This document shows, piece after piece, positions 14,771 to 61,852 of a stretch of DNA of 64,000 nucleotides; positions within the stretch are counted from its first letter, which is position 1; each line of letters begins with the position of its first letter. Both the position numbers and the translations under genes were made by a program. The notes under the pieces were generated by a model that was not told where the DNA came from, did no database searches, and saw nothing but the letters and a program-made list of their open reading frames with translations. Source of the DNA: Vermamoeba vermiformis (taxonomy: Eukaryota); contig JBEWZL010000260.1 in assembly GCA_045837725.1 (NCBI GenBank), positions 248,001 through 312,000 of the forward strand, written 5' to 3'.

Positions 14771-14782
14771 TGACACGTGTCA
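14771..14782. repeat. Dispersed palindrome TGACACGTGTCA (intronic)
   Basis: Exact 12-mer, one of six copies. Confidence 0.9.
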
Positions 14783-15259
14783 AACAGAATGTAAAGAGTT
14801 ACGTACTTGACAGCGTCTGCAGACGATAGTTCCTGTGAAGTGCTAGTGCCGTCTACAAGAATATTGTGTTAGATTGTAACGTAAGTGGCAAGTGTAGTCA
14901 CGTGGTGTCTTACTGGCAGGAGCCACAGTGACAGTAACGTCAAATCTGTTTTCATAAACTGTGCGCTTGGCTGGTATTGAGCCAGAGTTTTGGACGGAGA
15001 AGGTGCTCAATCGGTAAGTTGATAGGTTGTATCTGTGAATACTCCTGTTAGACCACACCAATAGTCGGTCAAGGAGTACGTACCTATTCGCAAAGTTTTC
15101 AGCCAATTGCACGCCATTGTCTCCAAGGTAATCAACCATCGCGAGAACAACAACGAATCCAGGAGCTAAAGGAAGCGATATTAGAACCATATGAAAGTCG
15201 ATTGAACCAACATACCTTCAGGGCACAACAACGGTGCAACGTTTGTCAGATCCACAGTC

Positions 15260-15756
15260 AAGTTGTACGAACCAAGAAGCCAACTGACTTGAGTCTCGCT
15301 ACTCGGCAAGGTAACGATGAAAGGTGACACGGGGTACGTTAAAGTTGAGCCAATTGAGAATGTTGTTGGTCTGGCACCCTGATAAAGCATTCAGAACTTG
15401 ATCACTCACGCTTAGCTCAATGTGTGAAACTTACTCCGTATTCGATAGGACTGAATGCGTTTGTTTCACCTTGACTAATCGTGTGTGCAACACGATCTTC
15501 GTTGATGAAACTGAAGTGGAGTGTGTTGCCTTCTTGCACTGGTTCAACGCAATCGAGGACAGGGATCACATTCGGCAAGCCACACACGCCGTTGTAGCCG
15601 ACCAATCCATTTGTACAGAGGCAATCTAAGTCACAGTTGGCACTACCATCACATTCCTCGTTGAGCTCGAGCAAGCCATTGCCGCAGAATGTGATAATTT
15701 GTCGCTTAATATGGTTGGTCTCGGGGTCTTTGGCGACCACGAGAATGTCGGAGCCA
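15260..15756. repeat. Direct duplication, copy A (partner 16628-17122)
   Basis: Near-identical DNA including an intron, from aagttgtacgaaccaagaagcc to aatgtcggagcca. Confidence 0.9.
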
Positions 15757-16627: not shown

Positions 16628-17122
16628 AAGTTGTACGAACCAAGAAGCCAACTGACTTGTGTCTCGCTATTCGGCAAGGTAACGATGAACGGTGACACTG
16701 GGTACGTCAAAGTTGAGCCAATTGAGAATGTTGTTGGTCTGGCACCCTGATAAAGTATTCAGAACTTGGTCACTCGCACTGATCAATGTGTGAAACTTAC
16801 TCCGTATTCGATAGGACTGAATGCGTTTGTTTCACCTTGATTGATCGTGTGCACAACACGGTCTTCGTTGATGAAACTGAAGTGGAGTGTGTTGCCTCCT
16901 TGCACTGGTTCAACACAATCGAGAACAGGGATCACATTCGGCAAGCCACACACGCCGTTGTAGCCAAACAATCCATTCGAACAGAGGCAATCTGTGTCAC
17001 AGTTGGCTCCTCCTTCGCACTCCTCATTAAGTTCGAGCTGTCCGTTGCCACAGAATGTTAAAACTTGTCGCATAACATTGCCGGTAAAAGGGTCTTTTGC
17101 AACTGCGGCAATGTCGGAGCCA
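16628..17122. repeat. Direct duplication, copy B (partner 15260-15756)
   Basis: Same sequence as copy A with scattered substitutions; similarity stops abruptly at 16628. Confidence 0.9.
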
Positions 17123-18843: not shown

Positions 18844-21835
18844 TCAGATGCGATCAGCCAAAAATTCTACCACTTGTTCCATCGTCTAATATAATTATTG
18901 GTAATAACATTCTTATTAATTATTCTACACGTTACTTACCGGTCGTAACTCAGGATTGAATTTCCAACACATTTGCATTACCTCCCGCAACACTGAATCT
19001 ACATCCGTGCCAGAGACCTGTGGCGTGTACCCTTGGTCACGAATTCTAACTGCGACGTCAATTTGATCTTCTTCAAGGTGAGGTTCTTTTCCAGTTACAA
19101 TCTCGCTAACTGAGAGTTGCGTCAGATCAGCTCGGAAAATTTCATTAAAATTTTGCGCATCTCGCATACCGACAATGCCAAACGACCAGACATCTGACTT
19201 TGGACTATAAATACCGCTTCTAATACTTTCAGGGGCCTAAGAACAAAAGGGATGCTTAATATTTTGTTGGGTCCGGATCCTACTTTTACCATCCACCGAA
19301 TCGGTCCTAATGTCGTATTGGTCTGACCCTGGGCCGCTTCACCTTTAAGAACCCTAGACATACCAAAATCCTAAATATTACCATTATTATACCTTACCAA
19401 CGATAGTTTGACACGTGTCAACTAGTCAGTTGAAAACGAAATTGACTTACTGAAATCTTCGGCTTGCCTTCTTTTAGCTACAACAACGTTAAAATTTAAT
19501 CGCTAAAGTACGTTAAAATAATCATTTACCAGGATATTTCGAGCGGCCAAATCTCGATGAATGATTTTGTTCTCGTGCAAATGAACCAATCCCAGTGCAA
19601 TGCCAAGTACTAAAGCACGTTGTTCTGTTTGAATTAAACTCCTTCGTGCCAGTAATTTATCGAGACTGCCGCCCTCGCAGTATTCAAGTACAATATGCGG
19701 GTGATCCATGTTCATGCTTAACCCGTACGTATAAACTACGTTTGAGTGCTGTGGCAGTGCCCTAAATATTCTCATTAATATTACCGATTTAATATAATAC
19801 TCCTTACAGTGTCAATCTCGCCTCATTCATGAACGATTCAAGCGATCCAACAAGATTACTCATTTTGACCGCGACTGTAATCCCGTTCCATTCCCTAATA
19901 AGGCGTTAATATAATAAAGAACTAATAATCGTTCATACCCTAAACAAACTTTGCCAAAGCTGCCTGAGCCAATCTCTTTCATGATCGTAAGAGCCTGGTA
20001 CTGAATAAATCTCGTTTTGGCAAAGATTGGATCCAATGGTGTATAATTTGTGCCACTCTCATCGAAGTCACTTTTCTTCGATTTTTTGCGTTGGTCCTTC
20101 TTGAGCAAGAATACTAATAGAAAAATACCCACTCCAATAGCAGATCCACAAATTAAACCAACGGTCAAGCCGATGGTTAATGCACCATCGTCGGGCTTAG
20201 TACTTGCCTCAATAGTCTTATTCATATCACTCGCTAATGTAGGTGCCACTACTTGATCATTTATCGGTACTTCGCTTGGTGAAACCTGTACCATCGGTTC
20301 CAAAGTAGTGTTAGATACCGGCGGAAACTCAAATCCAGTCTGCAAACGAAAATGCTTAGAATACGTAAGACGGATTATATTACACTTACCCCATCATCAT
20401 AAACCCAATAGTCAATCCCAATATTAGTAGCAACCAATATAACCTTATCCCTGCATGAAATTGCGTGCACGGTTAACGCATTGACGACCGCACTCTTTGC
20501 AACCATTTTGAACCCATTGGTCGTATCCAGTAAGTACAGATTATATGTTACCGTGTCCCCACTGTGCATACTAACAACTAACGAAGTGTTCCCTATCACG
20601 CAGCTGTGTAGGGGCAGACTGCCAGTGGTGTCGCGTATGGGGTAATCAACGCCGATTTGATCGATCGTGTATCTCGTGCTATCTCCCTCAACAATGCAAT
20701 AGTAGCTCTGAAACACGCTCAGTATACTGTCTTTATATGTCTATGTATCTTATCTTACCCCGTTAACTATACTCGTGGATCCATCAGTTGTGACATCTTT
20801 GAAGCACGTAAAATAATGCGTAGAGTTTGCGCTGAACGTGGCAGCAGTGGAGCTAGTTATATTTTGCACTCTCGAACACGAGGTTGTGCATTTGTCAATT
20901 ACTGTTAAGAACGTATCTGGTGCGCTCGCGCGTAATGACATAGATAAGTAATACCCATCACCTTTTGAACATTAATTTAAATGGCTATAATAAACAAATA
21001 CGTACCCCCAGGGTCTAAATAAGACTCCCACGCACCAATAAATTGCATACCATCACTCGCAGCAGAATAAAAATAAGGCCCGAGAGAGGTTGCATTGACG
21101 CGACTCTCGATCGATGTCTAATTATTCAATTAGTATTGGAATTGTATCAATGTATTCAAGGACTCACCCCTGTATATAAAAATGTAATGATTTCATTATT
21201 AAACCATATGGCATAGCTCGGGCTGTACCAATTGTACGAGGATAACGAGGCCACTAACGTCTCATTCGATAACAAGATAACATTGTATAAGGTCGCGGAA
21301 TTCTATGATAATTATATTAATAAGTATAATATAAGTAATTTCTTCGGCTTACATAAAGGCCAGCAAATCCACAGATCGGTAGCCCTCGGATCACGGTAAC
21401 GTCATCGTGTCCTGCTCCATTAAGTATAGAAATTTCGTTCCTTAATTTCGTAGTATTAGATTTTATCTCCAGAGTGCTTATTTGCGATTCATAAGCGGAG
21501 TCCACGAGGCAGAGCAGATGGTGTAAATCCATCCACCGGCATTCCCATCAATGATAAATAAATCGCGCCTCTGTGAGGCAACAGAAATCGGTGCGTCAAC
21601 TAATGAAGCGTGATAAAAGCCTGCAATGGAATTAGCACGCAAAAAAATAATTAATTTGAAATTAAAAAGGAAGTTTCAAACGGCCGCAGCTGCAGCAAGA
21701 AGTCAATATTTTAGTTTGAATAATAAGAATATTATTATTAATTAAGTACGACTACATACTTGGCTGCGCAAATGCCCAAACGAAAAAAAAATAAATGCTA
21801 GTCACTAAAATCGCGCGGCACCGAGCTGATCTCAT
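18844..21835 (-). CDS. Receptor-like tyrosine kinase (signal peptide, ectodomain, single TM, TK-type kinase)
   Basis: Leader MRSARCRAILVTSIYFFFVWAFAQ; TM LTIGLTVGLICGSAIGVGIFLLVFLL; IGSGSFGKV, VAVK, HRDLAARN, DFGMSR, GPIRWMAPE, MQMCWKFNPELRP; TGA at 18844-18846. Confidence 0.88.
19408..19421. repeat. Dispersed palindrome TTGACACGTGTCAA (intronic)
   Basis: Exact 14-bp extended palindrome in a kinase-gene intron. Confidence 0.9.
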
Positions 21836-22436
21836 GGCAGCGTAGACATTATGCATCCTCAGTTCAAAATTAATTTAAACATTGTTTGTTCTGTTCGTGT
21901 TTAGATCCGATTGAAAATTCTTACCGCGACAACATCTATGTGCCGACTATCAAAGAGGTGCTCATTGAAGTACAGTTCCCGAGTGTGTAACAAATAAATA
22001 AGCTGTTACAACAAAGAGATGTGTTGTTTATTATATAAAAGAGAGGAAATACTTTTGATTTTATTTTATTATCTTTAGTTATAATGTTCAACGGATGGGA
22101 ATAGCGAATCCGCGCAAAGTCTTCAACGGGTAATTTCTTACGTTACAGAGTGCTGGCTATTCAATGTTCCCGGTCAAGTACCCATTAAATCACAATGACG
22201 GATTTCAAGGAGGTCTGGGAAGAAAAAGATTCAGTTAGTAGTGAGTCTTCATCCCCGTCAATCCTTTTCAAATTCTTACTCACAGCGCAGTTTAGTAAGT
22301 TTAATCAATCTGTTCTTATCGAAGACCCGCGAAACGATATTTCAAAATGCGGATCTCAATATGTGTTCGAATCACATGAACGTATTCGTTATTTTTTCGA
22401 ACCGCAACACATTAACAACACAATACAACGAGGAAA

Positions 22437-26603: not shown

Positions 26604-26955
26604 TTTGTATCCCATTAACGATCCTAAACGCGTTTTATTGCGTCGTACTTGATTGTAGCGTAATTAAAATCGTTTCCCAACACGATTCAAGACGGAGAAA
26701 TAAGATGTAGCCACAAGTGAGCGAGCGTAATTCATTTATTTGAATTCCGCACCACAATTAATAGCCTCTTCTGTCCTCTAATAATTGGTTCGTCAATTAT
26801 CGGGTAAGTACGTACTTAACGGCCGTCAATTTCTCGTGACAATTTGGGACCCAAAAAATTTCCTAATTCGGTAAGGTGACCCGATAACGCAGAAGAGAAA
26901 TGGAACATCATTAATCAACCTACGCATCAAGTGGACAACATACACTGTCTCCATA

Positions 26956-28763: not shown

Positions 28764-29098
28764 TCTTCCAGAATTATATCAATAAAATATCCACGAGGAT
28801 GTCACAAAATTGTTTACATCTTTGTCAGATCGGGATCCAACTTAAGTATACCGCCGTCAGGCTATCACATGCTCTATCACAGCATTCAGAACTTCGTATC
28901 TTAGGGCGGAATAACGAGTTGTTTACGTGTAAAAATTAATTTATAATACTGAATTGTTTTCACAAAGGTTGAAAATCTTTGCTGTCATTTGTCATGCGAC
29001 TCAAGGGTCACACGAGATTTTCCATCGCAGTCCCATTCCTCCGTACTGAAACACTTTCAATTATCCGACCCCGCTCACACAAACACAACCACACGAGA

Positions 29099-31056
29099 AT
29101 GACAACGAACTTGAGAACAATCTTTGGCATTACACTTCTCGTATGTGCTTTAGGGATCTGTCAGGCCCGTGTCTTCATCTTCTCTGGTGCTTCCAACGGC
29201 ACTGATTTCGAGAGCGCTCAGTTTTATAGGAAAGGTAATGACTCATGAAAGGTTTCTAACGTTGAACGGTGGACTAACTTTGGGTATAATTTTTTGTAGG
29301 CGAAGACTATTCCAAGGGGTTTGAGCCTCTTGATGGCGTGCTAGTGTATTATAAGAACGAGAATATTACGGGCAAAATAGCTTATTTTACAACGGTTCCG
29401 CCTTCGATCTTTTATCCAACTATCTTTGAGCTGCGAGATCGAGGAGTAATTGGTGTTGTATATGGAGCTGACTGGCGTAAGTACTATTTATTACATGCAA
29501 TGCTCGAGCATTTCAATTCGATTAATAACGTAATTAAGCGGAATAACCTGAGCGACATTGCCAGATCTCGCTCGGATATTTAAATGAGCGAACAAATTTA
29601 ATTTCTGAATTATTATAGGGGTACCTGGCCAAGACTTTTGTTATTGGACTCGCGAAGATGTGTCTCAAATAACGTTCCCAGTAACCGAAGTTAACCGAGA
29701 ATCCCAATTTGATTTAATCCATCAAGAGCTACTCGAAGGGGCTGAAATAGAAATCCGTATGACTTCGGAAGGTAGGTTTATAAGATCTTTCAATAATTAG
29801 AAATTTTGTGAACAAGATCTTGTTTCAATTTTCCAGATCAGGAAGTCTCGAACTACGAAGCTTGCAAGTACTTAATGACGAATTAATAATATTATAGGTA
29901 ACCCATGGACGATAATTTCTGGTTCTGTAACCGTTACCGTTGTCTTCCGTGTGCTTCTTGGCGGATACGCTCTTGCCATGATAATTTTTGGCCTGTACAA
30001 ACTCATTCTATTTATCAACCACCAAGGCCCTCATTTCAACATTCCACAAGTTTGTCTCGGCCTCGAAATCATCGCCAACATGTGTACGTAATCTCTCTCA
30101 TTAATTTATCGATGTGTGCTTACGGCGTTTTTGCCACTTTAGGGCGAGTGATCTACTTGGTGGTAGATCCGCTTGGTTGCCAATTCGTGTATGGGTCGGC
30201 GGCTAACAGCTTCTTAGACTCAGTGAGCATCCCATACACAACAGCTACCTTTGTGATATTGACGTTCTACTGGTAAGTTCCGGGACACGTGTCAATCCTG
30301 CGTTGTGCACGGGTTGGATCCCGCTGACTCAAGGGACCAATTTGTTTCATTGTTACGATACTAATAAGGTGTCGTTAATTTAGGCACGAAATTGTCTCCG
30401 ATGCCTCTATCGCGATCTACCCGTTCTTATCCAAATTGAAGATCCCGTTCTTTGTGATCATGTTGTTACTTATTGCAATGGATATGACACTCAGTTTGGT
30501 TGGCTACTTCTACGACTTCGATACAACGACGTCAATGTCTATCATCTACATCGTTATCAGCTTTGGATTCGTGCTCTTTTACACTATTTCTCTCGTCAAA
30601 GTCATGAAGCGGATGCGTGTCTCAACGGACCTGCGTGGAAGACAAAAGCGCAAACTCAAGTTCTTATCGAAGGTAATACTCAATTTGAAGATTTAAACGG
30701 CTGAATAAGCCTTAAAGATTGCAGAAAAAGATTTGTACTTACGAATCTTGCTCGATCAGGTCAATGCCAAAATGATCTTCAACGGAGTCGCGCAGTTTGG
30801 TGTAGTAGTCGTTGGTATTGCCTACGCATTTCCTTCCGTCAATAGCTATCCAGTTAGCTACATCGTCATTTGGGCTTTCTTGTACTTCATCCTGATCACG
30901 GATTCGTTAGCGCGGATTATCTTGTTCGATATTTCCTCGCGTTCTGCCTCGAGCAAGAAGTCAAGAAGCGATAGTAAACTATCTGAGACTGGTACTGGAA
31001 AATTAACAGAGATTACCAACACTGCTGAGCTCGAGCAAAGTCAAGCAGTCGTTTAA
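29099..31056 (+). CDS. Signal peptide + PA-like domain + 7TM protein, paralog 4
   Basis: MTTNLRTIFGITLLVCALGICQA leader; ITGKIAYFTTVP...IFELRDRGVIGVVY; PGQDFCYWTRED; same 7TM motifs. Confidence 0.8.
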
Positions 31057-31376
31057 ATTGATTTTTAGTGCGTCTATTTTTGTATTATAAATAAAAATTA
31101 TTGCTTGCGATTCAGGATGTGTGTTTTGATCGTGGATGTACACAACATGAAACAAGTATTTTTGAAATTACTCAAGCTTACCGTACACAACAAATGATTT
31201 ACTTCGCCTACTACCATATTTTGTAAGTTTGCACGCAAGATTCTTTTGTGCTACGTCGATCAAACTTTCGATTTTATTTGAAATTCTTGTATGTACAAGA
31301 CGTCCCATACCTGACCAACGACTCAGTTGACGATTTAGCGATGAGAGAGCACTTTTAGCGAACTAAAACCGAAGCG

Positions 31377-36130: not shown

Positions 36131-38106
36131 ATGGAAACGACTTCCAATCTCGTGCAGATCGGCAAGCTGTGGATAAATTTATCAGCAGCTCGGATTAGCG
36201 AAGTCAGGTTTCGCCAGTTGCCCGGATTATCTGAATTATCATGCTCATTAATTATGGGAGATATTAAATACAACAGCAAAGCAGTATTAGGCCAAAAGAA
36301 AGTGTATCCAGAGCCGATCGGATTGGTCCACGAGTACCTGTGGGACAAAGAATTCGTTTTGTAAGCAAACGATATAACACTTATATAGTCAAGTCATTTT
36401 ATAGCGAAATAGCGATTAAATATTGCAGCAAATCTTTACCTCGGATCTGTCACAAAATCGATTTTGATTTTTGTTTTTTAGAGACGTAGAAAACTTTAAG
36501 CAACCAGTGCGAATCGACATAAACAATGGAAAAGGAGATGTTGTTGGATCTTTCGAGCTTGTTCTTGATAATATAACTCGTGATGAAACGACGGATGTAA
36601 ATGGCGAGATCGAGTATCGAGCTACCAAGGCTACGGAAAAGAGTTTAAGAGCTGCAAGAGTACAAATGCGACGGTCAACATCCAATTTTATGACTTCAAG
36701 CAGAAACGGACAAAATTTAAGTCCGATTTCTCCAATATTTCCGGATGAAGCATTGGATGCGCTACTTGCGGATCAGATCCACATTCGAGCTCATATAGTT
36801 GATTACGCGAACCTAATAGACGTAAGCATAATAACTTTTCAACTATTACGACCGAATTATTGACATTGCAATGTAGATCATCTCGAAGAATTTTATGAGC
36901 GTGACACGCGTCATATGCACGCATATAATAGACGATGAATTGGCAGAGAGTTTATTAACCATATTCGAAGGCCATCCTAATTTCAGACAATTAATGTACA
37001 GCGCTTTGTATGATGAAGTACAGCGAACACAAACAGTAGAAACTTTATTTAGAGTCGATAGCATGGCCACCAAATTAATGAAAAAATATACCAAAAAATA
37101 TGGATCACCTTGGATTATAGAGACGTTAAGGCCACTCGTCGAAAAACTATGGTAATTCGATTTTACATTTTTGCGTTATCAGATCTGACCGTTATTTTAT
37201 GTTACAGCGATAAAGATGTATATATAGAAGTGGACCCCGATAAAATCAAGCCAAATGCAGACCGATTACAACATATCGATAAACTCAAGCAATCAGTTGA
37301 CGCGTTCATGGCGGCTATTGTCGCATCCGAAAAAACTTGCCCTTTGTAAGCTTGAATAATACAATATTGCTAAAAATATGTTAATTTTAATAATATTATA
37401 CTAGGCAAGTAAGAGAACTGTGTCGAATGTTAGTACACGTCGTCAGAACGAAATTTCCGCAGCTCGGTACACGTGTCATCGGAGGATTTTTATTCCTACG
37501 GTATGTCATATAATAGCACAATAATGATACTGCATATAATAGGTCTCACCTACTATCGATAGAGTTATATGCCCGGCAATCACGAGTCCACTAGCGTTTG
37601 GATTAGTCGACACAGATCCGCATCAAAACGCAAAGCGACATCTAGTTTTGATCGCCAAGTTAATTCAGTTAATGGCCAACGGCAATAATTTACGCAAAGA
37701 AAAGTGGGTCGCTGAAGATTTCGAGCAATACTTGCTGAGGCGAGGTCAAGACGCGACATCATTTTGTGACGCTGTCGCGCAAAAGATACCGAACCCACGT
37801 GACAGATCTGACTCACCGTTATCTGAATGGACCTCAGGCGGCATTAATAATAAGACGAGCTTGCCGCACGTTATGATTGCCAGTCAAGCTTTTTCTTCGG
37901 CCGTGGCAAAAAATGCATTGAAGACGCAGCGGATGTCGCAAGCGATGATGACGATCCAAGCGTTAGATAACTTAGCCAAGTCAATATCAAAGCATATTGA
38001 AGTGTTACATAAAGCACTGTCATCAGATCCGCTTGTCGCTGGTCTGTTAAGTGCTGAAATCGAAATGAAATTTTCACCTTTGTTTGAAATACAAAATAAA
38101 CTGTAA
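36131..38106 (+). CDS. C2-like domain + Ras GTPase-activating protein
   Basis: N-terminal C2-like beta-rich region (LWINLSAARI...YLWDKEF); arginine finger TLFRVDSMATKLM; signature GGFLFLRVICPAITSP; LVLIAKLIQLMAN. Confidence 0.88.
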
Positions 38107-38145: not shown

Positions 38146-41100
38146 TTATTGAGCCATTTCTTCGTCCAACAAGTTAGCTACACTTCCTGATTTTCTCAAC
38201 TGCGGCATGTTTGCGACCAACGCACCGAGGCTACTTGTGCGCACCAAACCTCTGCTAGTCTTGACTTCACTCACTAAAGACACATCACATTAGTTAATAG
38301 GCGGCAAGGCAATGATATAATAATGCAAGAATTTCGATATTGAGGTGTAGATTTAAAATTTTAGTCGCGTCAACTTACCAGGCTTCTCGGGTTCTTTGGC
38401 CTTCAAATACATCTCGTGCTCAATCGAGTTTTTAATGATCAATCGCACCACAGTCACTTCACCCTTTTGGCCCTGTCTATGTGCGCGTCCAATAGCTTGG
38501 GACTCATATGCTTGAACCTCTGATTTGGATCCGCTCATCGGATCTGGATGTCGAAATTCAGTGAACTGTTCGTTCATGAAATACGATAGAATGCACTTAC
38601 CCATCAAAATCACGTGACTGGCTTCCACGAGATTTGTTCCAGATGCAGCCTTTTCCAAACTTAGTAAAATGACTTTGACCTTCGAGTTGGCAGCTTTGAA
38701 GCTCTGCAGAGCCTTATTCTTTCTGAATATATTGCCCTCAACAAACGCACTTTCAATGCCGTGATTCTCCAGCAAATCTCCGATCTCTTCGAGATACGCT
38801 GGGAACTGTGAAAAATATCCAGTGTTAGCGCTGATGGTGACACGTGTCAAGTTATGCTCAAAAATCAAATTTGCGCGGATTGAATGGTGAGTGAGTAAAA
38901 TATGAACCGAGGACCATAAATATTTCCAAATAAGGAAGTCGCATGTACCTTCGAGAATACAATGGCTCGGGCCTTTTTGTTCTTGTTGAACAAATCTTTC
39001 AAGTACGTGATCAAATGCGCCAATTTCGTGCCTTGCGTGTTGATCAAATGTTCTTTTTCTTCTTCGGGCGTCTATAAAAAACAACAACGATATCGTTAGT
39101 AGGGACCCCAAACAAAGTTCATGTGGCACTCATTATGACACGTGTCAAAATGTCAAACAAAACAAAGTTGTAGCTATGCATGAGGATAAAACCAAAAAAT
39201 TTGACACTTTGACACTTCGAATCACTCTTAATTTTTTCACGGATCCAGTAAAGTTGCCAAATTAGTAAATTGTTAGTACTTACGCGTCTCTTCTTCGTGT
39301 TCTCGCTCAACACGTTCTCAGTAATGGCTCTCGTCGCAGCCTTTTTGCTGGCTCTGTTGCTGCCTCGTCGTCTAACGTTGGTGTTGTTTTCTTCTTCTTT
39401 CTCCGGCACCACTTCACTGCTCTCAGTTAATTTCTTCGCATTGAGCTGAATGTCCGTTTTGTTGTTGTTGTGCGTCACGCCCTGTGAAGAAAATACTTAA
39501 TACATTTTCCTAATTAGGTAGGTAAAAGTTAAGTATATCGTAAAAAATAGAACTTTGAGGTAAAAATTATATTTTGATTGTGATATCTCTTATGACTTAA
39601 TTTGGATATTTTGAATAATTGAATTCTTACCGCTGCAGCGTACCGACGGAACAATTCTTCTTGTCTTTTGATATCCTTTTCATAATTTTTTATGTTTTCC
39701 TCAAGTGCTGCAATTTGATTCAAGTAATATTCTTCATTGAAACGCCCGCTTTTTTCTCCATCTCGTTCCATTCGTTCACGCTGCTGCTCGAGTTGGCTTC
39801 GCTGATATTCAATGCTCCGTTTGTTGGCCTCTATTCGGGAATAATTATTTGCTACTGCCGCCTACAAAATCAAAAGTTAATTTTTCAGTGAAACACAGAT
39901 TCAGTGAAACATTGATTCAGTGAATGAATGGAGGTGTCGTTGCAAAAAAATTGTTTTTTCGATCGTTTTCATGAAAATAAATTGTTGCAAACTTACGCGT
40001 TTCTGCTCAAGTTTTTCTTCACGAATGATGTTCAATGTTTTGCCGATATTTTTCGGCAATTTGCAGCACAATAATTCTTCAGTTTCATCTTTGTTTAGTA
40101 AGTACTTGGGCGCATTTTTGATTTCGTCATAAAGCACTGCTTCAATTGGCGAGAAATTCAACAGCACGACATCTTCGTTGTAATCAGGCACGGAATATTC
40201 CGTTGTCGCTTGTTTGGTATTTCTCCACAACAAATTTTTCACGAGCAAATCATTTTCAATCCAACTACAGGAAAAACAATTATACCAATTAATATTAATT
40301 TGTCTTATTAATTTTTAATAAATATTAACGGTCGATCGCGTTTAATTATCGAACAAAATATCGAATTCGATACTACGTATCGATTTATAATATCTTTTGC
40401 AAATATTCTTTTGAGAAAAAAGTGTTATTACGTACGAAGAATAAAGATTGGCGGCATTTTCCAAGTCCGCGACTTCTGTTTTGGCGCCCAAATAGACTTT
40501 CACTGGCTCAAATAACTCGCTAAATATTGCTAGTGTTAGCTCGCTTATAAATAATTACATCATTATTGTAATTGACGACCACTTACGGATCTGGGAACGG
40601 AGTGCCAGTGACGTACCAACTGAAATTTCGGCTGTAATGCTTGATGATGCCTATAAATAGCAATAATGAATAAGTTTATCTCGTTCAGTGAAAAATCGCT
40701 GCAAACAAATTTTCGACTTATCAATACGCGAGACTAGTCTCGTCATTTCCTAATTTAGTAATGTCTACTACGTACCAGCCAAAAAACCGTCTTTCAATAT
40801 CTCGTGGCCTTCATCGAGTATAATTCTGTGCCAGTGAAAGTGGTCCAGTAACGGCTGCATCACTTTATCGAGATTTTTCTTCTTAGAAATTGACTGCGAA
40901 AGTATTAGAATATTTCCATATATAGTAACGGCAAGGAAATAAGTAAAGTTGATTTAAATGAAAATATTATTATTGTCCTATTAATGTTCCGCCATATATA
41001 CTAGCGGTAGGACAATACTAAATAAGTCAAAATAAAGTACCTCGAATGAATTCATCACCCAACCCAAAGCGCGTTTTTCAGGCGCGTCACCAGCCATGCT

Positions 41101-45801: not shown

Positions 45802-45903
45802 GTGAATTACGGATCTTTGCTTTTAACAGAAGATCTGCTTTATTTTGATAAAAGGAACTAATTTTAGAAGAATTTGATTGTAGTAATTAGATCTAATCGT
45901 AGA

Positions 45904-52009: not shown

Positions 52010-55000
52010 ATGAGAAAAACAATCGCTTCGTTTGTGGTTGTGTTTCTCTTTGCCATCGTAAATGTTCACGGTATGACCTCAGAATCCGCTCCTTAAAACA
52101 ACTGATACGCTACTAATGATGATTTGTTTCACAGCACTTACGAGATATGTCGCGACTAATGGCCAAGATAGTAATGCCTGCACCTCTTCCGGATCGCCTT
52201 GCAAAAGTTTGAGCTACGCTGTATCTCAAGCTGTAGCTGGCGATACAATTAGCATAGGAGCTGGAACCTATCCTAGCACCAATAATATTGAAGTTAATGT
52301 TGCAAAAAATCTCGTTATCAGTGGAGCCGGATCCACGCCAAACGATTATTGATTTAAATAAGCAAGGTAAGATCTGGAAATATTATAAACACCATCATTA
52401 TTGTAGATTAATTACTACCATTCATTCTACAATTCTGTTTTCTTATCGAATGCTCGCAAAAATAGGCGCGTTCACACTTTAAAGCTGTTCACATATATAT
52501 AATCAAGCACTAAACTCTTTTGGTAATTAGGACGAGGATTCATCTTTAAGGGCAACTCCGATTGCTCAATTTCCGGCTTAACAATCAAAAACGGACTTGG
52601 ATCTGTGCAATCGTACAACTCAATCGCATCCGTTGGTGGCGGAATCATCGTCGATGGATCTTCTCTAGTTCTCCAAGATGTAGTTTTGGACGGATGCGCA
52701 GCGCCTGGTACTACAAGCGCAATGGGAGGCTGCTTGTTCGCTACGGTAAGCTTGATCCGAATTTCCGAACGCGCGAAACAAATTCCAACTCATCGCCCGC
52801 ATGAGATTACATAATTGCGTAACATGATTTCTCCGCGAGAATAGGAATATCCTCCGATTAGGCGAGATTATTATTTTTTTTAAGTTGGCGGCAAGATGCA
52901 GTCGCGACTGAAACACTTTCTGACTTTGGTTTCATTTTTCAGGGCGCTTCTTTAACTCTTACGAATGTAAAGCTACAAAACTGCCACTCTGGCATTGCTG
53001 GTGCTTGGTATTCGGGCGGTGCAACTATTGCGGTCGCGACTGGTATTTCCATCATCAACAGTACTGCCATTGATTCCGGTTGGGGCGGTGGCTGTAAGTA
53101 TTTTCTAAACTATGTTTTCCCTTCATGAATAGTCTAATGCCTCCTTGCTTCTTTTTAACCGTTGATCTATTTTTAGTCGTTCCAGATGACACAACCAACG
53201 CTCAAATTATCGACTCGCTCTTTGAAGGAAATTCTGCAGGCTATGGTGGCGCTTTGGACGATGGTAAGGGATCAATCTCCGATTTACTTCTTTAATGGCC
53301 CGCATAAAGAGTGTGTCTGTGTTTCGAAATTTAATACGGATGTTGGTATCACTGATTACTTTTTACCTAAAATAATGCCTTTTACATAATATTCCATTTT
53401 AGTATACTTTTTAATGTTTTCTTTAACAGGAATCAATGCTACCTACGTTGTCAAAAACACTATTTTTAGATCCAACAGTGCTCAATATGGTGGTGCGATT
53501 TACACCTTTGGATTCGCCGTTTCTCGCTTTGAAAACTGTACTTTTACTCAAAATGTCGCTTCAAATGCTGGCGGTGTCATTCGTACAACGTCTTCGACAT
53601 CCAACACTTTCGTCAACTGCACCATGTCTTATAATAGGGGCTTGGGTTCAGGTGGTGCCATCTCCGCATTCTCCTCGGAGCCGCTTACCGCAGACAACTG
53701 TTACTTTAAAGGAAATTACGCTCAGGTTCGTAAAATCGGTTCACAAAAATTAATCTCGCGACATTACTAAATTTTTAATTATTTAATATAATTTAGCAAA
53801 ACGGTGGTGCTATTGAACATAGTGGCCCTACGTCTATCTACAACAGCGTATTTGAAGACAATCAAAGTGCTTATATTGGTGCTGTCTATGATGTCGTTGG
53901 TACTTCAACGGTTGTGTTCTATAACAACACAATCCGATCCAGCTCGTGCTACCGAGGTGCTATTTCTATCAATATTGGATCTGATGCCATGTAAGCTCAT
54001 ACAAATCATTCTTATAGTCGCACTTCTAATTTGACTTTCCTAGGCCTATTGCAATGGACAACTTGAAGTTTGAGAACAACATTGCTACTGCCTCAGCTGC
54101 AGGCATTGTATTTTCGAACAAAGCTAATGTCACGCTGACTAACTGCGTATTCACTAACGTAAGTTTAGATTTCGTTGCATTAATTAATCGATTTAAAAAT
54201 TAACAACCGCGTAGAACTCTGCACCATACGGAGCTGCCATTGAAACTACTTCCGCCAGCGTTATTACCTTGGACAATAACGATTTTACTGCGAACCGGGC
54301 AACCTCGTAAGCGCTTTTTTTGTATTGGTGTAATAGACTGACTTTGGTCTTGACAGCGGTGGTGCATTGCACATGACTGACACGAGCACCGTATTCGTCC
54401 AAAACAGCCGCTTCACGAACAACGTGGCTATTCTCAACGGAGGTGCCGTCTATCACGAAGCCATTACTGTGCCGCACTTCTCTTCAGTCACTTTTACTGG
54501 CAATAGTGCTCGCAACGGTGGTGCTTACAGCGTTGCCGCGGGTGCCACGAACTGCTTCACATTCGACAAAGTCACGTTCAATAACAACAACGCGACTATT
54601 GGAGGCGGCGCTATTTTCTTCTTGGAAGTGATTGACACGTGCAACTACAACAATTTGTGCTCAAATTGCGCTTTCTCTGGCAATACTGCTTTGTTTGGAA
54701 GTGAAACTGCTTCAACCGCGCATCAACTCACTTTTGGATCTGAGCCTCCAAGTTCACTTTCTTCGTCACAATCCTTCACTGTTAGCTTGCTTTTGCTCGA
54801 CAAGTTCAACCAACAAGTCCAGCAAGAGCTCGACACGTTGATTCAAGCGTCAATTTCCTCGACCAATGCTTCGCTCCAGGGTATCTTGCAACAACAAGTG
54901 AGTTCTAATGGCTCCGTAGAATTCCAGCTCTTGAAGGTCTTTGCGTACCCCGACACCCTCGTGTCATTGACCTTCACGTCACTCACTTCAAACCTGATCC

Positions 55001-56178
55001 CTGCCGTTGTCAACTTGACTATCTTGGACTGCCAAGCTGGTGCTCAGACTTACGTCCTCGACGGTCAATTCAGATGCCTTCAAGTCTACGATGTTGACGA
55101 GTCACTCAAGATTGCCATCTACCTCATCACCTCGGTCCTCATACTTCTTGCCGTTGCCCTGCTTGTCTTTTTGATCGTTAAGCGAAACCACTCTGCTATC
55201 CGCAAAGCCACTCCCGTCTTGTGCTGGATGATCGTTGTTGGTGCCATTTTCTGCTACATCTCAGCGTACATGTGGCTCGAAACTGAAGACCCTTACTGCG
55301 TGCTTCGTATTTTCTTGTTCACGATTGGCTTCACGCTCATGTACAGCTCGTTCTTGGTCAAGGAATGGCGCTTGTACCGCCTCTTCAAGTTCGATAGTTT
55401 GCGCATTACGAAGATCACGGACATTTCCCTCATTCGTGTGGTCGCTGCCTGTGTCTCGTTTGAAGTCCTTATTGCCATCTTGTGGATGATTTTCTTCCCG
55501 TACTTGCAACGCGTTACGATTGATTTATCGTCACTGTCAGAATCAATCACTTATCAATGCGAAAGCGACACTGCTGGATTTTTCTGGGCAATGCTGGCAC
55601 TTAACGGCGTCATCTTGTTCTTGGGCTGTTTGCTAGCCATTGCTACTCGTAATATTCCTGCGAACTACAACGAAAGCAAGCACTTGGGTTTCTCGGTAAG
55701 TACTTACCTCTACGAGCATAACCCCGACGGATCAAGAACTTACTTTTTTCGTTGCAGATCTACAATGCAACTTTGACCATGGGCGTTGTAGTGCCTGTTG
55801 CTTGGGTATTGCAAAACCCCAATGAAAAGTCGATCACTGTCACTGCTGGCATTTTATTCTCTACATCTGCCTCGCTGATCGTCTTGTTCGGTCCTAAACT
55901 CAATTTGTCGCTACACAAAGGAGCCATCATCAAAGCTCTTGATGAAAATATAGGTAAGGAGCCACATTTAATATTTTTTGCGACATTCCAGTGCTAAGTT
56001 TCGCCGTTTAGAAAAACTTGAGCGAGATCTGGGTTGGTTCAAGAAACAACGAGCAGAATTTAATGGCTCATCGAGGTCCTCTGATCGCAGCGTTAGGATG
56101 ACAACAACTAATATATTAACTGAGACTAACGTTAACACTCCCAACCCAACGAGCCACAAAGATAGCTCAGAGATGTAA
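52010..56178 (+). CDS. Family C (7tm_3) GPCR with a parallel beta-helix (GGA-I/FxxN repeat) ectodomain
   Basis: Signal peptide MRKTIASFVVVFLFAIVNVH; YVATNGQDS..C...SPCKSLSYA; many FxxNxA..GGAI repeats; 7TM with IRKATP, FLVKEWRLYRLF, TRNIPANYNESK and LFGPK. Confidence 0.88.
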
Positions 56179-56357: not shown

Positions 56358-59201
56358 ATGGCGAAGAATTTATCTGCTATGTACAATCAGATAGTGAATG
56401 CTATCATCAGACCTCCAAGGTATGCCTCGCTTTGCCTTTCGTTGAAATTTTGTTAGGTGAATCTGATTCGCAAAGACTGGATCTAATTTAATTTGTGCAG
56501 GGCTGAATATGAAGCTGATGAGCTCGGAGATTCTGAATTTACTATAAATGGGATTAAATATCGTCGCGATGATTTTCAGGTAGGAAATTTAAAATAATAA
56601 AAAAATTCTATTCAATACGAATTAATAGCAATAGAATAGAATAGAACGCTTGTAAATAATTTAATTGTATTTTTGCATAATAATTAATTACTAGCAAATT
56701 GTCGGTAATTATGTTGAAATTAATTTTTTTTAATTAGATCAAGAACAGTCGCAACTTGAACTTGGAATGCAGTCATTTTGCTCCTGTAGTTAGACCTCAA
56801 AAACTGCCATGCGTTATTTATTTACACGGTAATTATACAGGAAATTTAAAACGACATCCACAATCAAAACTTGATTTTAATCCCAATCGAGTATAAATGC
56901 CATTTAATTAAATATTAATAACATTAGCGTCACGTCCATATCAATAATCAATCGGTACAATAACTCAAATATTGATTTTTAATCGAATTTTCAGGCAATT
57001 GCGGATGCCGTCTTGATGCTATGGAAGCTGTTCGCACCTTATTGCCACTAAATATAACAGGTAAATTTTTATAACATATTTTCAAATGCAGATCACGTTA
57101 AATACACCTCCATTCAATTTCACAATTTTCGAGCACATCCATGCCTCCCAGCTCCTCTTTACCAATTATTAAGATACACTCGTGCAATCTCGTTATTGCA
57201 TGCATATTAATTAAACCGTATATTGAATTGGAGTAATCAATCAATAATTAATCGTTTTGGATGCAGCAACTTTTCAACCGTTACACGAGGATACTAATCC
57301 ACTATTTATTAGTACTATGCTTCGACTTTAGTGGCTCAGGTCTGTCACAAGGAGAGTACGTCAGTCTCGGGCACTTTGAGAAGCAAGACTTGATCTCAGT
57401 TGTAAACCATCTGCGTGCATCCAACTCAGTGACGCGGATCGGTCTGTGGGGTCGAAGTATGGGAGCAGTAACATCTATATTATACGCTGCTACTGACCCT
57501 TCGATGGCTTGTGTCGTATTGGACTCGCCTTTTTCAAATCTGCGAACCCTCGCTTTTGAATTGTTAGGGAAAATGGAGGTAAGCCAAAAAAATCAATTAA
57601 TTAATCGAATCTATTTATATAAATCACTTCCCTAATCAATATCGTAAATTAATATCCAAGTTCCATTATTTCCAATTATGGCTATCGGTCACGAGATCCG
57701 GATGCACAGACTAATTAATTATTTATTTTAATAGACTAAAATTCCAAAGACCATTGCTAAAGTAGCGTTCAAATTTATCGAGAAGAGCGTTGAAAAGAGA
57801 GCTAAATTCGATATTGGGTAAGTCACTGATCCAGATCTATCTCAAACCAAATCTCGACAATCTCGCTAACAATACTGTTTTTCCTATTATAGAAAGTTAG
57901 ACCCTATTAAAGACGTCGAATTGTGCTTCAATCCCTCGTTATTTGCTCATGCTGAAGGCGATGATTTTATTGACATTTCGCACAGTAGGAAATTGTACGT
58001 ACGATTTTATTTAACTATTAATAGGCTTACTATTGAATAATAGATACTAATAAGTCTTATTATCATAGGTATGATAAATATCCTGGTGATAAGAATATTA
58101 TTGCTTTTGAAGGTGATCACAATAGCGAACGTCCCGAGTAAGTCACAGACAGATTCTAATTATAAAATATTTTATCAATTTTATTTATTTTAACTGATTT
58201 ATTTTCATGAATTAGGTTCTTCTACGATTCACTGACAATTTTCTTCAAAAATCACTTGTTGATTGAAAGCGACTTTGGAGGTAAGTCTGATCGATAAGAA
58301 TTATTTCCTAATATAGTAAATAACGCCATTTGGCTCTATTCCCAGACGACAATCCTTTGCCCAATGACATGGATCGTAAAAAGTTCTTGGAGCCCACGCC
58401 AGAAGTGCAAGACAACTTCACTCGCGCATTCAGAAATTTGAAAATGAGCGACTCAATGTCAATGCCGCACTCAGTTCAGAGTACGTAGTACTAGGATATA
58501 TATTACTTTAAGGTTACTAATTGACACGTGTCAAACTCTAGTCAACGACATGTTGTTCGGAAATAACTTTGGCGGTGGCGGAGATTTTGACGACGATTTC
58601 AATTTCGACGGCAAAGGGGCATTGCCTGATGAAGACGAAGAGCTAAGACAAGCCATCATGTTGTCGATGCAGTAAGTCTCTTATGTAACAATTCACTGAA
58701 ACATCCGTTCATGAAAATCAAACCCAAGATCTCGATTTTAAAAAGTCTTAATTCGTATTCTAATTTATTATTAGGAGCACTAATGTGGAATTTTTGAACC
58801 GTGAAGGAGGTCTATTCGCAGGAGGTCAATCTACGGCCCAAAATGATGAAGAGATGGATTGGGCTGAAGAAATTCGTCGCATTGAAGAAGCGACTAAAAG
58901 AGAAGAAGAAAAACAAAAGCAATTGCAAGCTGAAAAGACTGGGGAGGGGGCTAAAAACAGCGGCAGTGACAGTCCCAAAGACAAGGCAACTTCGAACAAA
59001 GAGCCGTCGAGCATCAATAGTGCCGTAGATAATAGCAGCAGTTCGATGAGCGGAAAAATTGTGTCGCCTAGACGAAAAGAAAGCAAAGATAAATCAAAGG
59101 ACAAAAAAGAAAAAGAAAAGAAATCAAAGGACAAGTCTTCGTCCAAGGACAAAGCCAAAGATAAGACGAAGGACAAGAAAGAGAAAAAAGACAAAAAATA
59201 A
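56358..59201 (+). CDS. Alpha/beta hydrolase (YqkD-like) with UIM-like motif and Lys-rich tail
   Basis: NAIIRPPRAEY, CVIYLHGNCGCR, FDFSGSGLSQGEYVSLG, GLWGRSMGA, VLDSPF, FEGDHNSERP; DEDEELRQAIMLSMQ. Confidence 0.88.
58521..58534. repeat. Dispersed palindrome TTGACACGTGTCAA (intronic)
   Basis: Exact 14-mer between a branch-point-like ACTAAT and the AG acceptor. Confidence 0.9.
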
Positions 59202-59352
59202 TTCTCAGAATTACAGTGCATGTTTTATTTCAGCATGAATTGCTCTTAGTCGGCAATCTATCACATGTACAATTTGTATCATAAAATTTAACTTCGAACT
59301 GGCTTTTGCATTGATGCCACGTGCTTGAAATTCAAACTGCTTCTTAATTGGT

Positions 59353-61852
59353 CTAATCATTTTTATTGTCACCTCTTTCATTGTTCTCGTTATCGTCTTC
59401 GTCAAAGTTATCCTCGTCTTCATCGCTGTCATCGTCATCTTCGCTATCACTTTCTTCATCCTCTTCATCAAGGTGCTCTTCCATATTCTCTTCCTCGTTA
59501 TGCTCTTCATCTTGCTTCGCTTCTTTGGGCCCGAACATACTTGGATCCGCAACAAAAGTTAGCAAATTCTCGCCAGCGCTGCGGAGTGCTGCCTCTCCTT
59601 CGGACAGTACTTCGTGTGTTGGGCCACTAGGATGCAAGAAGTCTAATTTGCTAATGAATCGTTCAGCCAAGCCTTGATCCCCGGAATCGTAGTGATCTTC
59701 CATGGGTATCACGTGATCAGGAGGTGACATGTCCGCCATTGGCACTTCATTAGGCGATACTCCTCGAACTTGTGCTGAATGCTCCGGATGCAAGCCTGCC
59801 CCTGAGACCGCTGCAGCACCGCCTTGAGCTCTTTTCATCGACTTGGGTGACATACCTAGCGCCAAAAAGTTAACGCTGCACAAGATTTGTTCAGAACAAA
59901 AAACGTACCCGTAATAGCACGATCAATTGAATTTGGCAAGCCACGGTGTCTGCCCAACAGCATGACTATAATGAGCACTAATTTGGATCCGTCGTGCCAT
60001 ACTCCGACGAAGGAGGCCGATGAGTTAGGGTACCCAAGCGAGAGTCCGACGTTGCCAAAACCAGAAATAATCTCGAACAGTACTTTGGATTGCGTGAAAT
60101 AGATGTCACTAATAAAGCGGTCATTTTCGATGAGACAGATCAAAAACAACGCAATAATCAGCCACGAGACATCACGCAGGACGATGTTCTTGACTTGATT
60201 CGTGAAATTGTTTGTTCGGCCGAGACTCTTCGTAATGTACACTGGCTTGTCGTTTGGATCTTCATCTGGGTCCAACTTTTCTTTGCGTCTGCTGATCGGA
60301 TCCGTCAACGATTGGGTTCGATTCATGCCACTTCGCCGAAGGACACCTCTGTTGGTATCTCTCGTACGGTTATTTCTTGAAAACTGTAGTTGCACGTGGT
60401 CGGCTGAATCTCCGAGACCTGACGGAGAGGTTAATTTTCCGTCAGCAGGCGATTGTAGGGTGCTGCCAAGAGGGCGGGTTGGAGTGACACGTGTCAATTG
60501 CGTCTTGGGTCTTCTGAGACGTGACGTTCTGATCGACAAAGTGACTGGATAGGCTGCTATATACATGGCTACTATCCACATGACACGAAGTGCTTCGGAC
60601 GAAAGACTCAGATCCACGCTGTTGAATCCGGCAGCTCTCGTTGAAAACGTTTGAAATATTCCGTTGACTATCTTCTCGATTTGATTTAATCCAGCTAACA
60701 TTGGTTTGTTGAATGCAATCAATTCAAATATTATGAGCTGCACTGAATTGAGCAGGACTAGTGTTATAAATAACCATCGTGTTTGGTACTTTGGAAATAA
60801 TAGCGTGTAGACTTGACGTGGATGCGTGAGCATGTAATGATAAATCTGGTTTGTCGGACATATTCTTCGGAGAACTATTACTATGATTCTGAAAGCTATG
60901 GGAAATGCTGTCAAGCCCGCCAAAATGTAGAACGATAAAATCAACAAAATTGCTGGGCTCGTTTCAAATCCCATTAAATTATCTGATAGCATTATAAGTC
61001 CTGCATTCCCAATAGCGCTTATTGTCACAAATCCAATAAACCAATAGGTGTTGACATTTCGCGCGGCCAAGACAGATCTTCCAAACTCCGAGGCCCAAAA
61101 GTATATAGCCAGAGATAAATAACATGTGACTACCAAGCCCAAGAGGTATAGTAATACTATTCGTATGACATATATGATGCTCATGTATTCTAATCTTGCA
61201 TCGCCTGTCAAAACTATCGATGGATGTGTCAACTTTTTGCCGTCTTTTTGTACGAATGCGCCGTTCCGTTTGATTTCGTCATGAAAATAGCGAATGCGGA
61301 ATAATAGCGGCAAAATACTATGAAATTAAAGGGTTAGAAAATAAGACTATTTTTAGATCGCGACATCTGAACTTTGCAAGATTTCTTTGTATCCGCAAAC
61401 TCTTATTATAAACTATCAATTATTGTGTATTATTATATGTCAGTCGTATTGTAGTGAGTTCGCACCTGTTCCATACAAATGAGCCGATCCAGATGTAGAT
61501 CACCATGAGAACTTGACCGCCAATCGATATCTGTGAGGGATCAATAGAACTTAAGCCAGAACAAGTCATGGAACTAGTCATAGTAAATAGACAATCGACA
61601 TAATCATAGCGTCCGCCTTCAATGCCATAAAATATGCCGGATCCAATGAATATCATGACCACGAAGTATGTGATGTGTATCCGCAAGAAATTTGCATATT
61701 TTCGCAATAGCCATCTAGCTTTTTCCTTAAATAAAATCCACACCGCCCTATTCAATAAAAATAAATCAGATCGAATTTCAAATCGAAAAATTTTTTCACT
61801 TTCACGAGTAGTAAATTATCCAATGAAATATTGTGCTAAACGCTCGGTACAT
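59353..61852 (-). CDS. Trk/HKT-family potassium transporter with acidic C-terminal tail
   Basis: Four MPM pore motifs, MTCSGL, IGNAGL, TRAAGF and FGNVGLSLGY, all with the filter Gly; C-terminal MLLGRHRGLPNSIDRA. Confidence 0.92.
60485..60496. repeat. Dispersed palindrome TGACACGTGTCA (coding, Trk cytoplasmic loop)
   Basis: Exact 12-mer within the QLTRVT codons. Confidence 0.9.

What the first reader, a model, noticed from the sequence alone, without database searches (positions are those of the whole stretch)
14771..60496. Highly iterated 12-bp palindrome TGACACGTGTCA, mostly intronic
Seen: exact copies at 14771, 19409, 38838, 39136, 58522 and 60485, all followed by A on the + strand. One-mismatch copies occur at 10179, 30283 and 36902, with partial ones near 7345, 37468 and 54632. 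Five of the six exact copies are inside AT-rich introns of unrelated genes, and none is in a promoter. Under an independent-base model, well under 0.01 copy is expected in 64 kb. Established: the core is a CACGTG G-box/E-box and resembles palindromic bZIP (ABRE-type) sites; cyanobacterial HIP1 is a precedent for iterated palindromes. Inference: a genome-wide site for a chromatin-organising factor, a methyltransferase/repair-driven motif, or a transposon target or footprint.
Basis: partly seen in the sequence, partly recalled or inferred. Interest (0 to 1): 0.7.

Follow-up and report, generated by a model that had tools for sequence, protein, structure and literature searches.

The report
Transcription-factor sites flooding gene bodies
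A 12-letter palindrome shaped like the site for a pair of TALE homeodomain proteins occurs about 2,800 times in this protist genome, inside genes and away from gene starts, together with several other factor-like motifs, and in one gene tested such motifs appear to have changed the protein sequence.

Summary
It is not a repeat fragment or a G-box. The word is TGACA-NN-TGTCA with a strict 2-base spacer and centre CG > GG/CC > GC. That is the geometry of TGIF1/MEIS3 (TALE homeodomain) paired sites, and the genome has 10 TALE homeobox matches. In an 857-kb sample, 42 of 62 copies are intronic and none lies within 400 bases of a predicted start codon. E-box, MEF2-like, CArG-like and TTCA(S)TGAA words share this 5'-excluded gene-body profile. 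All pile up in a GC-rich 50-70 kb domain, mostly one per contig examined. They far exceed a synonymous-codon null in coding DNA, and His-Val is about 20-fold enriched in this clade's COG2. My best reading is that the organism's own factor sites are pushed up by a weak force favouring factor-bound alleles, probably conversion drive (0.40). The main rival is selection for gene-body occupancy (0.33). Binding and mechanism are inferred. Ten literature searches found no report.

The parts
14771..14782 (.). exact TGACACGTGTCA in a predicted 81-nt intron (14726-14806) of a minus-strand gene
   Evidence: GT...CTAAC...AG seen in sequence
19409..19420 (.). exact copy in a predicted 80-nt intron (19371-19450) of a minus-strand protein kinase gene, just before the exon that holds the DFG motif
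38838..38849 (.). exact copy in RNA-shown intron 38806-38948 of a minus-strand helicase gene
39136..39147 (.). exact copy in RNA-shown intron 39072-39283 of the same helicase gene
58522..58533 (.). exact copy in a predicted 61-nt intron (58481-58541) of a plus-strand gene
60485..60496 (.). exact copy in coding sequence (reads LTRVT) of the minus-strand TrkH cation-transporter exon 59856-61325
10179..10190 (.). one-mismatch copy TGACACGTATCA, predicted intron 10114-10272 (minus strand)
30283..30294 (.). one-mismatch copy GGACACGTGTCA in RNA-shown intron 30273-30383 (plus strand)
36902..36913 (.). one-mismatch copy TGACACGCGTCA in a RasGAP gene; exon or intron not settled (the gene finder gave both)
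7344..7355 (.). two-mismatch copy AGTCACGTGTCA: an E-box word overlapping one TGTCA half-site; predicted intron

Best explanation
The palindrome is a paired site for a TGIF/MEIS/PKNOX-type TALE homeodomain: two TGACA half-sites, inverted, two bases apart. The CG centre may be favoured because it also forms a CACGTG E-box (inferred). Identity of the site: about 0.75. It is the strongest of at least five factor-like motifs that accumulate inside genes instead of at promoters. Proposed mechanism (inferred): a weak, strand-symmetric force favours alleles that a resident factor binds, most likely during gene conversion or recombinational repair, where the bound allele is cut less or serves as donor more often. 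Sites therefore build up wherever they are tolerated (introns first, then weakly constrained codons). They are removed near gene starts, where binding would disturb transcription, and are densest in one domain per chromosome where conversion would be most frequent and also raises G+C. Shown: abundance, geometry, placement, domains, excess in codons, candidate proteins. Inferred: binding, the force, and the nature of the domain.
For: Counts 2,793 vs 4 and 4,268 vs 33. Spacer 2 gives 115 sites, spacers 0, 1 and 3-15 give 0-12. Centres CG 62, GG/CC 35, GC 8, the other twelve 10 in all, which fits two independent TGACA(C>G) halves (genome-wide GG/CC/GC 639 forward and 669 reverse vs 6 and 5). TGIF1 binds as two monomers on ATTGACAGCTGTCAAT through helix-3 Arg-Arg-Arg (PMC6158717, section read); MEIS3 is listed as TGACAGGTGTCA (PMC5449588, passage). 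The genome has 10 Homeobox_KN matches; 6 end in NARRR; the one compared with the PDB has PKNOX1 (E 8.7e-23), TGIF2LX, TGIF1 and Meis as best hits. bHLH (5 matches) and MADS (6 matches) genes are present for the companion motifs. Unrelated motifs co-vary across 86 tiles (rho 0.40-0.60 with TGACANNTGTCA) and share the 5' exclusion. Motif-masked neutral G+C follows the same gradients: fourfold-site GC 0.475 to 0.69 along domain genes, 0.42 to 0.46 in arms. No fixed position in introns and no solid period. Coding excess over a synonymous null in the domain: 14 vs 0.2 (12-mer), 33 vs 0.6 (MEF2-like), 61 vs 8 (TCACGTGA). His-Val is 2.2-2.8 per 100 residues in 5 COG2 sequences of this clade vs mean 0.12, maximum 0.57, in 148 distant COG2. 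Motif-rich domain genes have shorter introns (rho -0.36, n 34). 0 of 9 reverse-transcriptase matches on seven contigs with a mapped cluster lie in the cluster (chance expects only 1-2).
Against: No binding, recombination or polymorphism data. At gene level, motif load does not track neutral G+C: in arms it falls with intron GC (rho -0.29, n 151) and is unrelated to fourfold GC; in the domain rho is 0.29, not significant. Neighbouring domain genes differ from 0 to 17 motifs per kb, in introns and exons together, which points to a gene-level chromatin state as much as to regional recombination. The reversed half-site control also correlates with G+C and with the motif across tiles (rho 0.55 and 0.46). 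In known hotspot systems the factor-bound allele is the one cut and lost (recalled). One domain per contig looks more like a centromere, which usually recombines less (recalled). Some 'coding' hits are stop-free introns: my gene finder called 38838 exonic and a 48-nt motif-bearing intron lay inside the COG2 frame, so coding counts are upper bounds.
Confidence: 0.4

Rival explanations
1. Same TALE-type site, but kept by natural selection: factor binding along gene bodies keeps weakly expressed housekeeping genes open, or suppresses internal transcription, most needed in a centromere-near or otherwise repressive domain. It would work like the anti-silencing PATC tracts of C. elegans introns (recalled).
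For: Mostly one dense domain per contig. Load is gene-specific: in the domain, genes with low exon load have 3.2 intron motifs per kb, those with high load 14.8. Load falls weakly with a codon-based expression proxy (rho -0.33, n 47, p 0.02). The domain has lower CpG (0.92-0.97 vs 1.05-1.13) and higher TpG/CpA (1.24-1.34 vs 1.07) ratios, and four loci match C5 methyltransferases. A relative at 74-79% DNA identity keeps the same motif set inside genes.
Against: It does not by itself explain why neutral G+C follows the same gradients or why unrelated factor families are all used. No retroelement build-up in the domains. No spacing rule. The TpG excess may be partial motifs left after masking.
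Confidence: 0.33
2. Ordinary gene-specific regulation: intragenic enhancers of a TALE regulon, moved into introns because intergenic space is short.
For: Introns carry 12.2 copies per 100 kb against 3.6 in intergenic DNA of arms; short intergenic gaps; TGATTGACA, a PBX-MEIS-like composite (label recalled), 37 vs 8 for a one-base control.
Against: 0 of 321 first introns and 0 copies within 400 bases of a start, the opposite of usual regulatory placement. Clustering is by chromosomal domain, and sites run through codons.
Confidence: 0.1
3. The binding protein is a bHLH or bZIP that reads an extended CACGTG core.
For: CG is the commonest centre (62 of 115). CACGTG is itself enriched and GA is among its commonest flanks. 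bHLH genes exist.
Against: The most tolerated change (35 sites) breaks CACGTG and ACGT, while changes in G2, C4 and A5 are rare (2, 3 and 4 sites). G-box hybrids are absent (0 and 1). bZIP genes were not searched.
Confidence: 0.08
4. A HIP1-like word created and kept by a sequence-specific methyltransferase and methyl-directed repair.
For: Palindrome with a central CpG; C5-methyltransferase matches at four loci (not characterised).
Against: A fixed recognition site would not tolerate three other centres. TG/CA decay products are 2 against 62. MEF2-like, CArG-like and TTCATGAA words, which lack CpG, show the same profile.
Confidence: 0.05
5. Footprint, target or fragment of a mobile element.
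For: A few copies sit in duplicated sequence (L001 and L002).
Against: No shared flanks in 6 window copies, 15 loci elsewhere or the 30-copy profile; copies sit in frame in coding exons and in 42-60 nt introns.
Confidence: 0.02

Closest known systems
TALE homeodomain paired sites (TGIF1 TGACAGCTGTCA, MEIS3 TGACAGGTGTCA)
   Same: Inverted TGACA half-sites, 2-base spacer, G/C centre, T-rich outer base; candidate proteins with the NARRR recognition helix are encoded.
   Different: Preferred centre is CG, not GC or GG. About 2,800 perfect copies lie in gene bodies and avoid promoters. Binding was not tested.
Cyanobacterial HIP1 (GCGATCGC; PMC5861425, abstract read)
   Same: Hyper-abundant palindrome within and between reading frames, no evident gene-level role; here about 700-fold over the reversed control, against 15- to 300-fold reported for HIP1.
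   Different: Eukaryote; degenerate centre; one of several motifs; excluded from 5' ends; concentrated in domains. Long-range periodicity and site conservation, reported for HIP1, were not established here.
DNA uptake sequences of Haemophilus and Neisseria (PMC2817400, abstract read)
   Same: Hundreds to thousands of copies that raise the frequency of the peptides they encode and sit in poorly conserved genes; here His-Val in COG2.
   Different: No uptake system is known here; the words match nuclear factor families; the effect in the one gene tested (about 20-fold) is far above the doubling reported proteome-wide for uptake sequences.
C. elegans PATC tracts (recalled, no call)
   Same: Intronic signal enriched in a chromosomal compartment, proposed to protect genes from silencing.
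   Different: PATCs are periodic A/T tracts, not factor consensus sites, and are not known to reshape codons.

Membership tests
TALE homeodomain paired site | TGACA half-sites, inverted, exactly 2 bases apart | tested here: met
   115 sites at spacer 2; 0-12 at spacers 0, 1, 3-15; everted pairs 0-8
TALE homeodomain paired site | Centre tolerant among G/C dinucleotides while TGACA is strict | tested here: met
   CG 62, GG/CC 35, GC 8, others 10; changes at G2, C4, A5 total 9; genome-wide
TALE homeodomain paired site | Genome encodes a TALE homeodomain with TGIF/MEIS-type recognition helix | tested here: met
   10 PF05920 matches, 6 with NARRR; best PDB hits PKNOX1, TGIF, Meis for the one compared
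TALE homeodomain paired site | The protein binds the site in vitro and in vivo | not testable with these tools
   needs EMSA/SELEX and ChIP or footprinting
bZIP G-box/ABRE site | Invariant ACGT core with GCCACGT-type halves accepted | tested here: not met
   core broken in 35 + 8 sites; TGACACGTGGCA 0, TGCCACGTGGCA 1 in 857 kb
bHLH E-box | Invariant CACGTG with free outer flanks | tested here: inconclusive
   the exact word contains CACGTG and E-boxes are separately enriched, but the variant spectrum follows TGACA, not CACGTG
HIP1-type iterated palindrome | Strong genome-wide over-representation in and between reading frames | tested here: met
   2,793 vs 4; introns, exons and intergenic DNA
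HIP1-type iterated palindrome | Sites conserved in position between relatives | tested here: inconclusive
   orthologous DNA pairs were not available; in COG2, 6 of 10 His-Val sites are invariant in 5 relatives and at least one is a lineage gain
HIP1-type iterated palindrome | Periodic spacing along the chromosome | tested here: inconclusive
   only 110-260 bp periods tested; best about 140 bp, 1 of 60 jitter controls as high, among 29 tests; 10-90 kb periods not tested
HIP1-type iterated palindrome | Cognate methyltransferase and methylated site (recalled feature) | not testable with these tools
   four C5-methyltransferase loci exist, specificity unknown
Mobile-element fragment or footprint | Shared flanks or target duplications | tested here: not met

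The most novel reading that the evidence does not exclude
A eukaryotic counterpart of uptake-sequence drive: alleles bound by the cell's own transcription factors win in gene conversion, so the whole set of factor motifs is written into introns and codons, is cleared only near gene starts, peaks in one domain per chromosome and rewrites housekeeping proteins. The genome sequence alone would then reveal the factor repertoire and mark a chromosomal landmark (conversion domain or centromere) in an organism with neither mapped.
Probability: 0.35. Interest if true: 0.92.

Novelty: new variant of a known kind. Interest (0 to 1): 0.76.

Why it matters
Factor sites are normally enriched at promoters and rare in coding DNA; this genome shows the reverse for several factor families at once. 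If drive is the cause, it is a new evolutionary force linking protein occupancy to inheritance, and it makes the long-open question of how iterated motifs such as HIP1 arise testable in a eukaryote with sharp built-in contrasts (domain against arm, gene body against 5' end, neighbouring genes with 0 and 17 motifs per kb). If selection is the cause, it is a gene-body anti-silencing code made of ordinary factor sites. Either way the dense domains are candidate centromere or recombination landmarks, and His/Val/Arg/Thr shifts in these proteins can mislead phylogenies.

Tried and rejected
Longer repeat or shared flanks: none. TALE autoregulation: the TALE loci on C263 and C56 are motif-rich, but only because they lie in dense domains; six other TALE loci are at background, so rejected. 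An endogenous viral element behind the C263 cluster: rejected, the frames include COG2, BCCIP, a RasGAP and an exonuclease-phosphatase (5 of 12 frames had a Pfam hit). Nucleosome-scale periodicity: a peak near 146 bp did not survive jitter controls well. Replication-origin skew switch at the domain: none clear; the transcription-linked skew is weaker in the C263 domain. Virus collection: copies found in tailed-phage fragments at gene junctions, unrelated. Site-by-site conservation could not be measured: the orthologous stretches of G000 were not in hand, and the read lay listed 40 of 1,461 differences. No RNA holder was listed for the stretch; introns came from a diverged strain's reads and from contigs guessed to be RNA. 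Codon-based expression proxies were uninformative in arms. Earlier findings of the scan: nothing returned. The Acanthamoeba Hi-C preprint (10.1101/2021.10.26.465878; passages) has no occurrence of 'motif'.
Full report
Observation. The window is G000:C260:248001-312000 of a 43.3-Mb, 309-contig genome with short spliceosomal introns. I take it for a protist, probably an amoebozoan, from its gene content; that label is my recall and no call tested it. The genome holds 2,793 exact copies, one per 15.5 kb, against 4 for the word read backwards. The window's six are ordinary for this genome (4.1 expected). RNA joints put 38838, 39136 and 30283 in introns; 14771, 19409 and 58522 are in predicted introns; 60485 is in the TrkH coding exon.

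Anatomy of the word. Flanks are unrelated between copies, so it is a site, not part of a repeat. Freeing the two central bases raises the count to 4,268 against 33; the GG/CC/GC centres give 639 forward and 669 reverse matches against 6 and 5. In 857 kb of sampled genome (86 tiles on ten contigs; 14 tiles were chosen around TALE genes and 20 more on one TALE-bearing contig, so the sample over-represents dense regions), inverted TGACA pairs number 115 at spacer 2 and 0-12 at spacers 0, 1 and 3-15. Centres are CG 62, CC 19, GG 16, GC 8 and ten others in all. Among one-base variants C6G has 35 sites, A3T 14 (it makes an overlapping GTCACGTG) and every other 6 or fewer. In the first, unselected 464 kb the word was the top 12-mer after poly-A against a fifth-order Markov model. 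This is the geometry of TALE homeodomain pairs: two TGIF1 monomers bind ATTGACAGCTGTCAAT through three helix-3 arginines (PMC6158717, passages and section 16 read), and MEIS3 is tabulated as TGACAGGTGTCA (PMC5449588, one passage). G-box hybrids expected of ABRE-type bZIPs are absent (0 and 1). The genome has 10 Homeobox_KN matches among 13 candidates; six end in NARRR, one is PBX-like; the one I compared with the PDB is closest to PKNOX1, TGIF2LX, TGIF1 and Meis. TALE genes are known from Acanthamoeba and Naegleria (PMC6219170, passages). Which protein binds is not shown.

Placement in genes. I built a small gene finder; it recovers 11 of the 14 RNA-shown introns used to seed it (so this is not an independent test), merges some neighbours and tends to call stop-free introns as exon. 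Of 62 exact copies, 42 are intronic, 17 in predicted coding sequence and 3 intergenic. None of 321 first introns carries TGACANNTGTCA, and no exact copy lies within 400 bases of the nearest predicted start, over 184 kb. In arm introns the exact word is 0 in 51.5 kb within 500 bases of the start and 24 in 159 kb beyond (p 0.0012); two control words are flat in introns (p 0.3 and 0.26), though one control is also lower at 5' coding ends (p 0.003). There is no fixed distance to donor or acceptor.

It is one of a set. CACGTG/TCACGTGA, CTA(W4)TAG, CC(W6)GG and TTCA(S)TGAA/TTCATGAA are enriched too. I read the first three as bHLH, MEF2 and SRF consensus words from recall; bHLH and MADS genes are present. 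They share the 5' exclusion and co-vary across tiles. All peak in G+C-rich stretches of 50-70 kb: C263:105-180 kb, C3 from 410 kb, C56 around 305-325 kb. Independent listings show one cluster on most other large contigs: 18 of 26 GG/CC/GC sites on C11 fall in 582-650 kb, 15 of 17 on C12 in 44-91 kb, 12 of 16 on C8 in 48-108 kb, and an E-box word picks the same stretches, 8 of 8 on C11 and 6 of 7 on C8. C13 shows two loose groups, and the 324 kb of C260 that I hold, window included, has no such domain. Per 100 kb the exact word is 12.2 in arm introns, 0.7 in arm coding DNA, 53.2 in domain introns and 15.2 in domain coding DNA.

Effect on proteins. In domain coding DNA the motifs exceed a null that keeps each protein and redeals synonymous codons: 14 vs 0.2, 33 vs 0.6, 27 vs 3.7, 61 vs 8; that null itself exceeds a codon-order shuffle for CACGTG (90 vs 49), and His is 3.6% against 2.1% in arms. 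These are upper bounds, because one motif-bearing 48-nt intron hid in the COG2 frame. The protein test avoids that problem: His-Val, which CACGTG encodes in frame, is 2.2-2.8 per 100 residues in this COG2 and four relatives at 78-86% identity, against a mean of 0.12 and a maximum of 0.57 in 148 distant COG2 hits (one short close hit was left out). One His-Val replaces Tyr-Ile of three relatives. This is one gene only.

Relatives. Two metagenome contigs with the full motif set align to G000 at 79% and 74-78% identity, so the trait is shared by a clade and is not an assembly artefact. Whether individual sites are conserved could not be measured.

Mechanism. A 700-fold excess of a 12-mer is too large for simple shielding from mutation (inference) and needs a directional force that compounds over generations: selection or conversion bias. 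For drive: unrelated factor families are affected alike, without positional rule, at the cost of amino-acid changes; motif-masked neutral G+C rises on the same two gradients (fourfold GC 0.475 to 0.69 along domain genes, 0.42 to 0.46 in arms); motif-rich domain genes have shorter introns; retroelements do not gather in the domains (0 of 9, weak). Against drive and for selection on chromatin: gene-level load does not follow neutral G+C (rho -0.29 with intron GC in arms); neighbouring genes differ from 0 to 17 motifs per kb in exons and introns together; one domain per contig suggests a centromere; the domain has a mild CpG deficit and TpG excess and the genome has four C5-methyltransferase loci. 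I put drive at 0.40 and selection for gene-body occupancy at 0.33. A single methyltransferase, a bZIP or bHLH site, and a transposon footprint fit poorly.

Comparison and novelty. It works like HIP1 and DNA uptake sequences (abstracts of PMC5861425 and PMC2817400 read) but is not a member of either: it is eukaryotic, degenerate, one of several motifs, and compartmentalised. No report was found in ten full-text searches of the held library: the exact word (two unrelated Ebola papers); five TALE-type variants; Vermamoeba (a guess from memory, untested) with genome, motif, binding and GC terms; amoebozoa + TALE + binding motif; amoeba + gene bodies + factor motifs + gene conversion (none); protist + highly iterated palindrome; uptake-sequence drive. 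I saw listings and abstract openings only, except for the papers named above. Subscription journals and supplements, where a genome paper's motif table could sit, were not seen.

Verdict. Site identity as a TALE pair about 0.75; cause unresolved. New variant of a known kind; interest 0.76.

Noticed in passing
L205-L210, L213 (IMG/VR phage fragments G001-G006, G009): Tailed-phage head, tail and baseplate regions carry TTTGACACGTGTCAAA-type palindromes 2-6 times per 5-9 kb, nearly always at gene junctions just before a start codon. Probably a late-gene operator or RNA-processing hairpin; unrelated to the protist motif.
   Followed up: partly
L241, L245, L252, L257, L271, L275, L277 and similar metagenome loci: High-GC (66-77%) contigs carry two TTGACACGTGTCAA copies 16-20 bases apart, which look like paired bacterial operators over a -35 box.
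   Followed up: no
L058 / G000:C263:147256-148580: Two TALE-like homeobox genes lie back to back with divergent recognition helices (WYANARTR and WFINARQR).
   Followed up: no
L070:715-1803 (G000:C56:305715-306803, minus): Frame with no Pfam hit; its N-terminal part resembles DG1062_N clusters, with weaker LAG1/p53-type DNA-binding leads. A possible reader of TTCA(S)TGAA or GAAATTTC words (guess).
   Followed up: partly
window 8500-10500, 22200-24300, 26900-28800, 29000-31100: Four paralogous membrane-protein genes, three in tandem and one inverted (repeat families D2, D3, D5, D7, D9, I1-I4).
   Followed up: no
window 15260-15716 and 16628-17082: Internal duplication of about 460 bases, 88-94% alike, in a cysteine-rich extracellular region upstream of kinase exons.
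   Followed up: no
window 52077-55997: Family-3 GPCR gene whose extracellular part holds parallel beta-helix-like (Chlam_PMP) repeats.
   Followed up: no
G000 domains (C263:105-180 kb, C3:410-450 kb): Further enriched words not assigned to a family: CCAGGGC, CAATCA/GATTGA, TGTTTGACA, CAGATC; direct TGACA repeats with 2-3 base spacers are also raised (30 and 40).
   Followed up: partly
G000:C263:105-140 kb: The transcription-linked base skew seen at fourfold sites in arms (GC skew about -0.2/+0.2) is near zero in this part of the domain.
   Followed up: partly
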